Of a stretch of 64,000 nucleotides of DNA, positions 908 through 1,840 are shown piece after piece. The notes beneath the pieces are model-generated. The model saw only the letters and a program-made list of their open reading frames with translations. It had not been told where the DNA came from and ran no database searches. How positions within the stretch are numbered: position 1 is the first letter of the stretch; every line of letters begins with the position of its first letter. A program made the position numbers and the translations under genes. The stretch is from the human T2T-CHM13v2.0 reference genome, Homo sapiens: positions 1,664,001-1,728,000 of the forward strand of contig CP086569.2 in the NCBI GenBank assembly GCA_009914755.4, given 5' to 3'.

Positions 908-1840
908 GGCCGGGCACGGAGGCTCACGCCTGTAATCCCAGCACTTTGGGAGGCCGAGGCAGGTGGATCACAAGGTCAGGAGATCGAGACCAGCCTGAGC
1001 AAAATGGTGAAACCCCGTCTCTATTAAAAATACAAAAATTAGCTGGGCACGGTGGCTCACGCCAGGAATCCCAGCACTTTGGGAGGCCAAGGTAGGCAGA
1101 TCACAAGGTCAGGAGATCGAGACCAGCCTGAGCAATATGGTGAAACCCTGTCTCTACTAAAAATACAAAAATTATCTGGCTCACGCCAGTAATTCCAACA
1201 CTTTGGGAGGCCGAGGCAGGCAGATCACCTGAGGTCAGGAGTTTGAGACCAGCCTGGCCAACATGGTGAAACCCCATCTCTACTACAAATACAAAAATTA
1301 GCCAGGCGTGGTGGCTCACGCCTGTAGTCCCAGCACTTTGGGAGGCCGAGGCAGGCGGATCACAAGGTCAGGAGATCGAGACCAGCCTAACATGGTGAAA
1401 CCCTGTCTCTACTAAAAATACAAAATTTAGCTGGCTCACGCCAGTAATCCCAACACTTTGGGAGGCTGAGGCGGGTGGATCACCTGAGGTCAGGAGGTTG
1501 AGACCAGCCTGGCCAACATGGTGAAACCCCATCTCTACTACAAATACAAAAATTTGTCAGGCATGGTGGCTCACACTTGTAATCCCAACACTTTGGGAGG
1601 CTGAGGCAGGCGGATCACCTGAGGTCAGGAGTTTGAGACCAGCCTGGCCAACATGGTGAAACCCCATCTCTACTACAAATACAAAAATCAGCCAGGCATG
1701 GTGGCTCATGCCTGTAGTCCCAGCTACTTGGGAGGCTGACAGAGGAGAATCACTTGAACCCGGGAGGCAGGGGTTGCAGTGAGCTAAGATCCTGCCACTG
1801 CACTCCAGCCTGGGTGACATAGTGAGACTTGGTTTCAATA
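908..1840 (+). repeat. Tandem array of about 6 Alu left-monomer units (~130 bp each) ending in one complete Alu right arm; 2-unit (~258 bp) higher-order repeat
   Basis: Repeated ggctcacgcc...cccagcactttgggaggc...gaccagcctg...ggtgaaacccc.tctcta.ta.aaatacaaaaatt units start at about 908, 1041, 1167, 1301, 1426 and 1563. The right arm spans 1698-1840. Units alternate between a 'caaggtcaggagatcgagacc' type and a 'cctgaggtcaggagtttgagacc' type. An unusual junction, tta.ctggctcacgccagtaat, recurs at 1160 and 1419. Confidence 0.8.

What the first reader, a model, noticed from the sequence alone, without database searches (positions are those of the whole stretch)
908..1840. Tandem array of Alu LEFT monomers (6 units) with a dimeric higher-order repeat, capped by one right arm
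Ordinary Alu clusters are independent insertions of dimeric elements. Here ~130-bp left-monomer units follow each other head-to-tail with no right arms, poly-A tails or TSDs between them. Units alternate between two sequence types, and a peculiar deleted junction (tta.ctggctcacgccagtaat) recurs 259 bp apart. This indicates unequal crossing-over between left and right arms followed by tandem amplification of a ~258-bp two-monomer block. Such Alu-monomer satellites are rare.
Basis: seen in the sequence. Interest (0 to 1): 0.65.

Follow-up and report, generated by a model that had tools for sequence, protein, structure and literature searches.

The report
Old Alu with six left arms
One ancient Alu insertion had its left half copied in place until six left halves precede a single right half; this is a large example of a known, function-less kind of repeat-derived tandem duplication, in a region where such duplications are unusually frequent.

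Summary
Window 908-1836 holds six head-to-tail Alu left-monomer+linker units (126-135 bp), one right monomer and an (AAT)n tail. No right-arm sequence, A-tails or TSDs lie between units. One 20-bp TSD (887-906 / 1875-1894) brackets everything, and removing the array restores a colinear L1.

- **Mechanism:** U4 and U6 begin with the right arm's own 5' end, a direct mark of right-by-left out-of-register exchange. U3 and U5 share a truncated start 255 bp apart (not 259), marking one two-unit block duplication.
- **No higher-order repeat:** unit order is A-A-B-A-B-B, not alternating, and only one block duplication exists.
- **Two unit types:** they differ at Alu subfamily-diagnostic positions, so the founder probably drew on two Alu sources.
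- **Age:** same-type units differ by 6-9%, so the array is old.
- **Rarity:** left-to-left junctions are uncommon (0 of ~135 background Alus). The same window nevertheless holds a 4-left-arm Alu, a 2-left-arm Alu and a fourfold whole-Alu array, and 25% of it is tandem repeat.

Alu-derived tandem repeats, left/right-monomer recombination and Alu-in-Alu insertion are all published. Verdict: an ordinary mechanism, an unusually large instance, low-to-moderate interest.

The parts
600..886 (+). Host: old L1 ORF2 3'-region fragment, upstream part
   Evidence: 76% identity, colinear with another L1 copy of the window (41900-42700, minus strand)
887..906 (+). Left target-site duplication ATAAATTGTTCTAGTGTAAA
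   Evidence: Direct-repeat family D5, 18/20 identical to 1875-1894. Deleting 907-1894 restores an ungapped L1 alignment across the junction
908..1041 (+). U1: left monomer + linker, type A (Sc/Y-like), with the native left-arm 5' start GGCCGGGCACGG directly after the TSD
   Evidence: B-box GATCGAGAC retained, A-box mutated
1042..1174 (+). U2: left monomer + linker, type A. It has a left-style start (GCTGGGCACGG) after a linker, shares GAGCAA with U1, CCCTGTC with U4 and CGCCAG with U3/U5, so it is a mosaic
1175..1300 (+). U3: left monomer + linker, type B (Sx-like with private changes CCCAACAC, TTTGAGA, CCCCATC, TACTACAAAT). Its 5' start is truncated by 9-10 nt
   Evidence: B-box lost
1301..1429 (+). 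U4: type A body behind a right-arm-derived 5' start (GCCAGGCGTGG...TGTAGTCCC, as in R). This is a right-by-left exchange product with the crossover between Alu nt 28 and 36. It also has a 4-bp deletion
1430..1555 (+). U5: type B with the same truncated start as U3, 255 bp downstream. It is a copy of U3 from the two-unit block duplication
   Evidence: (D2: 1134-1363 vs 1389-1618, 93%)
1556..1690 (+). U6: type B body (shares GCTGAGG with U5) behind a right-arm-derived start (GTCAGGCATGG). This is a right-by-left exchange product with the crossover between nt 24 and 28
1691..1836 (+). R: the single right monomer (AluS-type: GAATCACTTGAACC, GGGGTTGCAG)
1837..1874 (+). (AAT)12.7 microsatellite, the decayed A-rich tail of the insertion
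   Evidence: TRF period 3, 100% matches
1875..1894 (+). Right target-site duplication ATAAATTGTTCTAGCATAAA
1895..1928 (+). Host L1 fragment, downstream continuation

Best explanation
This is one Alu integration site inside an old L1 fragment whose left monomer plus A5TACA6 linker was amplified in place to six copies. It is a passive by-product of recombination or replication, not a functional device.

Shown:
- One 20-bp TSD and one A-tail-derived (AAT)n bracket the whole structure, and the host L1 is colinear once the array is removed.
- There are six left arms, one right arm, and no tails or TSDs between units.
- Units share private, non-consensus mutations, so they were copied from each other locally.
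- U4 and U6 carry the right arm's own 5' end fused to a left-arm body.

Inferred: left and right monomers share about 40 nt of 5' homology and lie 135 bp apart. Out-of-register pairing, followed by unequal sister-chromatid or homologue exchange (or an equivalent replication template switch), adds left+linker units. The most parsimonious history is a founder A-B-R followed by three exchanges:
1. A 133-bp step gave U1/U2.
2. A right-arm by U2 exchange added the 255-bp block U4-U5.
3. A right-arm by B exchange added U6.
Some patchy conversion is also needed.

The founder already had two different left arms, Sc/Y-like type A and Sx-like type B. My preferred reading (about 0.45) is that a second Alu integrated at the mid-linker of the first, and its right arm and tail were later removed by right-by-right recombination. 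The main alternative (about 0.35) is short-tract gene conversion of a duplicated arm. Same-type units differ by 6-9% overall and 3-5% at non-CpG sites, so the events are tens of millions of years old. The array is one of four in-place Alu amplifications in a window that is 25% tandem repeat, which points to a regional tendency toward unequal exchange.
For: - Single TSD and host continuity.
- Architecture of six left arms then one right arm, with nothing between.
- TRF periods 135, 255 and 390.
- Private mutations shared within types: type B has CCCAACAC, TTTGAGA, CCCCATC and TACTACAAAT in U3, U5 and U6 and nowhere else in the window. U1 and U2 share GAGCAA. U3 and U5 share the truncated start. 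U5 and U6 share GCTGAGG. U2 and U4 share CCCTGTC.
- Right-arm-style starts of U4 and U6, identical to R at A5 and T11, and at G28 for U4.
- The same mechanism is visible elsewhere in the window. Z2 at 50095 begins with the right-arm-specific GGTGGCGGGCACC and continues as a left arm. X2-X4 at 27319-27718 begin with the right-style GTGTGG.
- Types A and B match recurrent Alu subtypes seen in other Alus of the window.
- Independent loci from stray primate DNA show heterotypic L-L-R elements (L004, L009) and a clear Alu-in-linker nesting (L008, L-L-R-R with a duplicated linker).
- Published support: 25 of 663 ARMD events recombine a left with a right monomer. Insertion of one Alu into the middle of another is common because the linker carries two L1-endonuclease sites, and 51 of 663 ARMD events involve such nested pairs (PMC2041999). 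2,663 Alu-derived tandem repeats are catalogued, including 136 'partial Alu next to full-length Alu' (PMC3389668).
- Age.
- Regional context.
Against: - No allelic or orthologous copy could be retrieved, so the order and timing of events rest on a few shared substitutions per unit.
- U2 is awkward. It has a left-style start after a linker and one site (A24) otherwise seen only in type B. It therefore needs either a crossover within the first 8 nt, a B/A hybrid origin, or conversion.
- No relic of a second right arm, tail or internal TSD survives, so the nested-insertion founder is inferred only from heterotypy and start style.
- Crossing-over cannot be told apart from replication slippage or template switching on sequence alone.
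- A single TSD is equally compatible with insertion of an already multimeric RNA.
Confidence: 0.8

Rival explanations
1. Single-element founder plus gene conversion. An ordinary AluS duplicated its left arm by right-by-left exchange. One copy was then partly converted by a younger Sc/Y-type Alu elsewhere, over a tract covering at least Alu nt 64-78, which created type A. Later amplification proceeded as in the best explanation.
For: The only subfamily-diagnostic A/B differences (the CT indel and T78A) lie within 14 nt of each other. Type A is Sx-like again at ACCAGCCTG, so it is itself mosaic. All other A/B differences are private type-B substitutions. No remnant of a second element survives.
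Against: The type-A combination also occurs in unrelated Alus (24486 minus strand; first arm of L001), so it may be a genuine minor subtype and not a conversion mosaic. No donor is identifiable. The model explains neither the truncated start of type B nor the left-style start of U2.
Confidence: 0.35
2. Chimeric retrotransposition. During the original target-primed reverse transcription, L1 reverse transcriptase copied a type-B Alu RNA almost to its 5' end. It then jumped onto a left-monomer (scAlu-like) type-A RNA, which made A-B-R in one event under one TSD. Later amplification proceeded as above.
For: Heterotypic arms lie within one TSD. Type B lacks its first 9-10 nt exactly at the junction with a complete type-A monomer+linker. 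U1 keeps a native 5' end at the TSD.
Against: U5 retains 'GC' of the TTAGC linker end before TGGCTCAC, which fits a simple 9-bp internal deletion equally well. Nothing in the sequence demands a template switch. This is a resemblance to known chimeric retrogenes recalled from memory, not tested here.
Confidence: 0.07
3. Preformed multimer. The six-left-arm array arose at another locus and was transcribed and retrotransposed here as a single RNA of about 0.93 kb.
For: One TSD and one tail surround the entire array. There is no T4 Pol III terminator inside it; the first TTTT is at 1930.
Against: No second copy exists in the window. The truncated U2/U3-type junction was not found in genome contigs, and the right-flank junction was not found in metagenome contigs. 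Three other Alus in the same window were amplified in place, each with its own private mutations, which favours a local process. Units have diverged from each other about as much as from the consensus.
Confidence: 0.06
4. Cluster of independent insertions of free left monomers, or an assembly artefact.
For: None beyond the superficial clustering.
Against: There are no TSDs or A-tails between units and no right-arm cores. Units share private mutations and a shared deletion. Units differ by 6-17%, so reads would place them unambiguously and a collapse or expansion artefact is unlikely.
Confidence: 0.02

Closest known systems
Alu-derived tandem repeats (TE-derived minisatellites/satellites; Ahmed & Liang 2012, PMC3389668), especially their class 'partial Alu repeated next to a full-length Alu' (136 loci)
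   Same: Head-to-tail local duplication of part of an Alu adjacent to the rest of the element. Units are closest to each other, and expansion occurs in place over time.
   Different: The units here are 83-94% identical, below that catalogue's 95% cut-off, so this locus would not have been listed. The unit is a whole left monomer plus linker (126-135 bp, against their mean of 88.6 bp). There are six copies and two unit types.
Alu recombination-mediated rearrangement between left and right monomers (type 3 ARMD, 25 of 663 events; Han et al. 2007, PMC2041999)
   Same: Out-of-register homologous exchange using the 5' homology of the left and right monomers. It leaves chimeric right-start/left-body arms such as U4, U6, Z2 and X2-X4.
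   Different: ARMD is scored as a deletion between two separate Alus. Here the reciprocal (gain) products accumulated repeatedly within one insertion.
Nested Alu-in-Alu insertion at the mid-linker (Han et al. 2007, PMC2041999; example L008 recovered here)
   Same: It produces a linker followed by a left arm, and left arms of two different subfamilies under the host's TSD.
   Different: A nested pair keeps the guest's right arm, tail and linker TSD (L-L-R-R). None of these survives here, so a further right-by-right deletion has to be assumed.
Alpha-satellite-type higher-order repeats
   Same: Monomers of two types, and one multi-monomer block that is more similar between its copies (93%) than neighbouring monomers are to each other (87-88% at A/B boundaries).
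   Different: There are only two copies of the block, no homogenisation and no dominant HOR period (offsets 135, 255 and 390 score equally). Total length is under 1 kb.
Free left Alu monomers (FLAM) and the snaR clusters derived from them
   Same: The building block is the 7SL-derived left monomer.
   Different: FLAMs are separate retrotransposed monomers with their own tails and TSDs. snaR arrays are kilobase-scale segmental repeats (PMC4333407). Neither is a 135-bp head-to-tail array inside one Alu.

Membership tests
L1-mediated Alu retrotransposon insertion | Flanking target-site duplication | tested here: met
   887-906 against 1875-1894, 18/20 identical. Excision restores a colinear L1.
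L1-mediated Alu retrotransposon insertion | 3' A-rich tail | tested here: met
   (AAT)12.7 at 1837-1874 directly after the right arm. Its derivation from poly-A is inferred.
L1-mediated Alu retrotransposon insertion | Canonical architecture of one left monomer, A5TACA6 and one right monomer | tested here: not met
   Six left arms and one right arm.
L1-mediated Alu retrotransposon insertion | Integration at a T-rich/A L1-endonuclease-type site | tested here: inconclusive
   The TSD starts within GGAATATAAATTG (bottom strand ...ATTTAT/ATTCC). This is AT-rich and compatible, but the exact nick is ambiguous because the tail merges with the TSD.
Alu-derived tandem repeat (TE-derived minisatellite/satellite) | At least 2 head-to-tail units of 20 bp or more, at least 70% similar to a TE consensus | tested here: met
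   6.3 copies of 135 bp. Units are 89-94% identical to the AluSx left arm.
Alu-derived tandem repeat (TE-derived minisatellite/satellite) | Units generated locally from each other | tested here: met
   Private mutations are shared within the array and absent from the other ~60 Alus of the window.
Alu-derived tandem repeat (TE-derived minisatellite/satellite) | At least 95% identity among units (catalogue threshold of PMC3389668) | tested here: not met
   Pairwise identity is 83-94%. This is a threshold of that survey, not of the biological class.
Satellite with higher-order repeat | A multi-monomer block repeated many times and homogenised | tested here: not met
   One duplication of a 255-bp block (D2). 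The order is AABABB. Self-identity is equal at 135, 255 and 390.
Cluster of independent Alu/FLAM insertions | Each unit has its own TSD and A-tail | tested here: not met
   Only canonical mid-linkers lie between units. A single outer TSD is present.
Nested Alu-in-Alu insertion | Guest element with its own right arm, tail and duplicated linker target site | tested here: not met
   There is no second right-arm core or tail. Only indirect traces remain: heterotypic arms and the left-style start of U2. This lowers membership but does not exclude nesting as the founder event.
Copy-number-variable VNTR | Unit-number differences between haplotypes or species | not testable with these tools
   No primate genome or pangenome collection is available. 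Locus-specific searches of the public collections found nothing.

The most novel reading that the evidence does not exclude
The flagged array may be a symptom of a regional property. In this 64-kb stretch four separate Alu insertions (908, 7347, 27184, 49960) were amplified in place, 25% of the sequence is tandem repeat, and some arrays are young (96-98% identity). The locus could therefore be a long-lived hotspot of unequal exchange in which Alu monomer homology repeatedly seeds 130-320-bp minisatellites. Some of these may still vary in copy number and carry multiple Pol III or nuclear-receptor-type sites.
Probability: 0.25. Interest if true: 0.4.

Novelty: new member of a known kind. Interest (0 to 1): 0.25.

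Why it matters
This locus is a clean, dissectable example of how the internal left/right homology of Alu can seed a minisatellite. The junctions record where each exchange happened, and the two unit types show that more than one Alu source contributed. It changes no concept: left-by-right monomer recombination, Alu-in-Alu nesting and Alu-derived tandem repeats are all documented. Its practical value is modest. Such loci are split by repeat annotation into several 'Alu fragments', they can confuse read mapping, and they fall below the 95% identity cut-off of the published catalogue of TE-derived repeats, so old arrays like this one are under-counted. The clustering of four amplified Alus in one 64-kb window is the part most worth a genome-wide follow-up.

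Tried and rejected
1. Retrieving other copies of the locus failed. Two ORFs over the array are not on record in the assembly index. The exact flank junction was absent from metagenome contigs. The truncated U2/U3-type junction was absent from genome contigs.
2. Viral contigs contains no Alu mid-linker junction of either kind, so it was useless as a background.
3. Rfam at gathering thresholds reports nothing in the array. It reports only two Metazoa_SRP-level matches, in other Alus at 38645 and 49471.
4. No protein-coding context was found. ORFs of 130 aa or more are all repeat-derived, so the gene or locus and the species could not be identified.
5. I searched the window for a donor carrying type B's private motif and found none.
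6. Two apparent 'L-R-R' duplications were examined and rejected. 45066-45228 is a separate 5'-truncated AluY with its own TSD, and 53971-54131 belongs to a different subfamily from its neighbour.
7. Two apparent background left-left junctions were false: L039 is a left arm followed by 7SL-like sequence, and L077 is a split hit.
8. CpG retention is higher in type A (14/30) than in type B (5/21). This could mean type A is younger, but the counts are too small to use.
9. Six literature searches found no paper that names left-monomer arrays as such.

Full report
**What is there.** Reading 600-2300 and running Tandem Repeats Finder confirms a head-to-tail array over 909-1736. The reported periods are 135 bp (6.3 copies, 83% matches), 255 bp (3.0 copies, 88%) and 390 bp (2.1 copies, 86%). 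A multiple alignment fixes these units:
- U1 908-1041
- U2 1042-1174
- U3 1175-1300
- U4 1301-1429
- U5 1430-1555
- U6 1556-1690
- right arm R 1691-1836
- (AAT)12.7 at 1837-1874

Each unit ends in the canonical A5TACA6 mid-linker.

**One insertion site.** The repeat finder reports a 20-nt direct repeat, 887-906 against 1875-1894, with 18/20 identical, exactly at the two outer borders. I removed 907-1894 and aligned the reconstructed empty site to another L1 copy in the window (41900-42700, minus strand). The alignment is colinear and gap-free across the junction, at 76% identity over 330 nt. The whole structure therefore occupies a single retrotransposon target site in an old L1 ORF2 3' fragment.

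**Two unit types and who copied whom.** U1, U2 and U4 (type A) have CAC--AAGG and GAGATCGAG. These are the states of the Sc/Y lineage, but type A is Sx-like at ACCAGCCTG. U3, U5 and U6 (type B) have CACCTGAGG and GAGTTTGAG (Sx-like), plus the private changes CCCAACAC, CCCCATC and TACTACAAAT. The type-B private motif occurs nowhere else in the window. The diagnostic motifs themselves recur in other Alus of the window, so they are real subtypes and not artefacts of my consensus. Identity is 91-94% within a type and 83-88% between types. The order is A A B A B B, which is not an alternation. Further shared derived states link these pairs:
- U1 with U2 (GAGCAA, GGGCACGG)
- U2 with U4 (CCCTGTC)
- U3 with U5 (a start truncated by 9-10 nt, plus CGCCAG)
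- U5 with U6 (GCTGAGG)

The truncated junction recurs at 1172 and 1427, 255 bp apart and not 259. The blocks 1134-1363 and 1389-1618 are 93% identical. One two-unit block was therefore duplicated once. Ungapped self-identity is about equal at offsets 135, 255 and 390, so there is no real higher-order periodicity.

**Junction evidence for the mechanism.** The first 45 nt of each unit show the following:
- U1 has the native left-arm start (GGCCGGGCACGG) directly after the TSD.
- U4 and U6 start like this element's own right arm, GCCAGGC[G/A]TGG. U4 also has the right arm's TGTAGTCCC.
- Both then continue as left arms. They are right-start/left-body chimeras with crossovers at about nt 28-36 (U4) and 24-28 (U6).

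This is the direct signature of out-of-register exchange between the right arm and a left arm. The same signature appears in two other Alus of the window. At 49960-50374 (two left arms, one right arm, one TSD), the second left arm begins with the right-arm-specific GGTGGCGGGCACC. At 27184-27866 (four left arms, one right arm, one TSD), units 2-4 begin with the right-style GTGTGG. Each array has its own private mutations, so these are independent local events and not copies of a multimeric master element.

**Most parsimonious history (inferred).** The founder was A-B-R. It was followed by three steps:
1. A one-unit step produced U1/U2.
2. A right-arm by U2 exchange added U4 (R start plus U2 body) and U5 (a copy of U3). 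This is the 255-bp block.
3. A right-arm by B exchange added U6.

U2 is not cleanly explained. It has a left-style start behind a linker and one type-B-specific site (A24). It needs a crossover in the first 8 nt, a B/A hybrid origin or a conversion patch.

**Why two types?** Duplication alone cannot create subfamily-diagnostic differences. I consider three routes.
- **Nested insertion (about 0.45).** A second Alu integrated at the mid-linker of the first, and the extra right arm plus tail were later lost by right-by-right recombination. Han et al. report that such nesting is common because the linker holds two L1-endonuclease sites. They also report that 51 of 663 ARMD events involve nested pairs and that 25 of 663 recombine a left with a right monomer (PMC2041999). 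Stray primate DNA recovered from metagenome contigs supports this route: L008 is a clear L-L-R-R with a duplicated linker, and L004 and L009 are heterotypic L-L-R elements.
- **Short-tract gene conversion (about 0.35).** The two diagnostic differences lie within 14 nt of each other.
- **Template switching onto a left-monomer RNA during reverse transcription (about 0.07).** This is suggested only by the truncated type-B start.

No relic decides between these routes.

**Age.** Same-type units differ at 3-5 of about 103 non-CpG sites and by 6-9% overall. Each unit differs from the consensus by 3-6% at non-CpG sites. Amplification therefore began soon after insertion and is old, probably tens of millions of years. 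This is not a young or actively homogenised satellite. Only U2 and U4 keep both Pol III box matches, all three type-B units have lost the B box, and the first T4 terminator downstream is at 1930. Nothing suggests function.

**How rare?** I compared junction counts in background DNA and in this window.
- **Background by pattern:** in stray human DNA inside bacterial assemblies, 0 of 92 mid-linker junctions are left-to-left.
- **Background by arm BLAST:** 0 true cases among about 135 Alus, after two false calls were rejected.
- **Metagenome contigs:** one scan did recover 10 contigs with such junctions, mostly L-L-R trimers.
- **This window:** 3 of about 60 Alus carry extra left arms (nominal Fisher p of about 0.03, my arithmetic). 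A fourth Alu (7347-8640) is a fourfold tandem array of the whole element with shared private mutations and one TSD.

In total, 25% of the window is tandem repeat. This includes 3.9-kb and 3.6-kb minisatellites and young arrays of 96-98% identity. The flagged array is best read as the largest of several products of a regional tendency toward unequal exchange.

**Known or new.** Ahmed & Liang list 2,663 Alu-derived tandem repeats, including 136 'partial Alu next to full-length Alu', and they attribute expansion to local duplication (PMC3389668). Their 95% identity cut-off would miss this older locus. I found no paper that names left-monomer arrays specifically. This is therefore a new, large member of a known kind, produced by known mechanisms.

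**Limits.**
- No primate genome was available, so orthologues, haplotype variation, genome-wide frequency, chromosomal location and species could not be checked.
- Subfamily labels rest on consensus sequences recalled from memory.

Noticed in passing
window 27184-27866: A second multi-left-arm Alu: four left monomer+linker units (period 133, 3.9 copies), one right arm and one TSD (AAAGTCAT.CA). Units share the private changes TGTCATCCC and ATGGAGAAAC and a shortened linker (ACAAAAAG). Units 2-4 start with the right-arm-style GTGTGG.
   Followed up: partly
window 49960-50374: An AluY-like L-L-R trimer with one TSD. The second left arm begins with the right-arm-specific GGTGGCGGGCACC and then continues as a left arm, which makes it a textbook right-by-left exchange product.
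   Followed up: partly
window 7347-8640: Four full-length Alus in tandem (period ~323). They share private mutations (GGTGTCGGGCGCC, GACAAGAGGGAGACTC, GAATCTCTTAGAACC) and a single TSD (AAAGGATTTCA), so one insertion was amplified whole, including its A-rich tail.
   Followed up: partly
window 11403-15315 and 18713-22330: Two large minisatellites: a 42-45-bp unit in ~92 copies (3.9 kb) and a 58-bp unit in ~62 copies (3.6 kb). The first gives stop-free ORFs of 846-856 aa on both strands, which are repeat artefacts and not genes.
   Followed up: no
window 31942-32760, 50620-51234, 16259-16758, 59945-60068: Young tandem duplications: 148 bp x5.5 at 96%, 77 bp x8 at 98%, 235 bp x2.1 at 95% and 61 bp x2 at 96%. 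Tandem duplication in this region therefore continued long after the Alu arrays formed. In total 25% of the window is tandem repeat and about 29% is Alu.
   Followed up: no
window 53686-54131: A complete AluY plus poly-A is followed directly by an AluS-type right arm that starts at the linker's TAGC, apparently within one TSD (AAAC.TGTGG). It looks like a nested Alu-in-linker insertion whose host left arm was lost by left-by-left recombination.
   Followed up: partly
window 45066-45228: A 5'-truncated AluY (from the mid-linker onward) with its own TSD (AAAAGAAAAG), inserted into the tail of the older Alu at 44761-45040. TRF calls this a 188-bp repeat, but it is not a duplication.
   Followed up: yes
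L039 (NZ_JAWRVK010000113.1, 651 nt, in a Halalkalibacter flavus assembly), about 220-651: A low-coverage contaminant contig in which an Alu left arm and linker run straight into near-full-length 7SL RNA-like sequence where the right arm would be. It is either a real Alu/7SL recombinant or pseudogene junction, or a short-read assembly chimera.
   Followed up: no
L011-L090 (genome-contig scan): 88 stretches carrying Alu mid-linker junctions sit in assemblies labelled as bacteria. They include many 8-17-kb primate-like contigs in one 'Roseivirga sp.' MAG (CBDIHZ01...). This is host or human contamination of public prokaryotic genomes.
   Followed up: no
window 24486-24514 (minus strand); L001 first left arm: The type-A combination (CAC--GAGG + GAGATCGA + ACCAGCCTG) also occurs in unrelated Alus, so it may be a minor Alu subtype and not a mosaic peculiar to this locus.
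   Followed up: no
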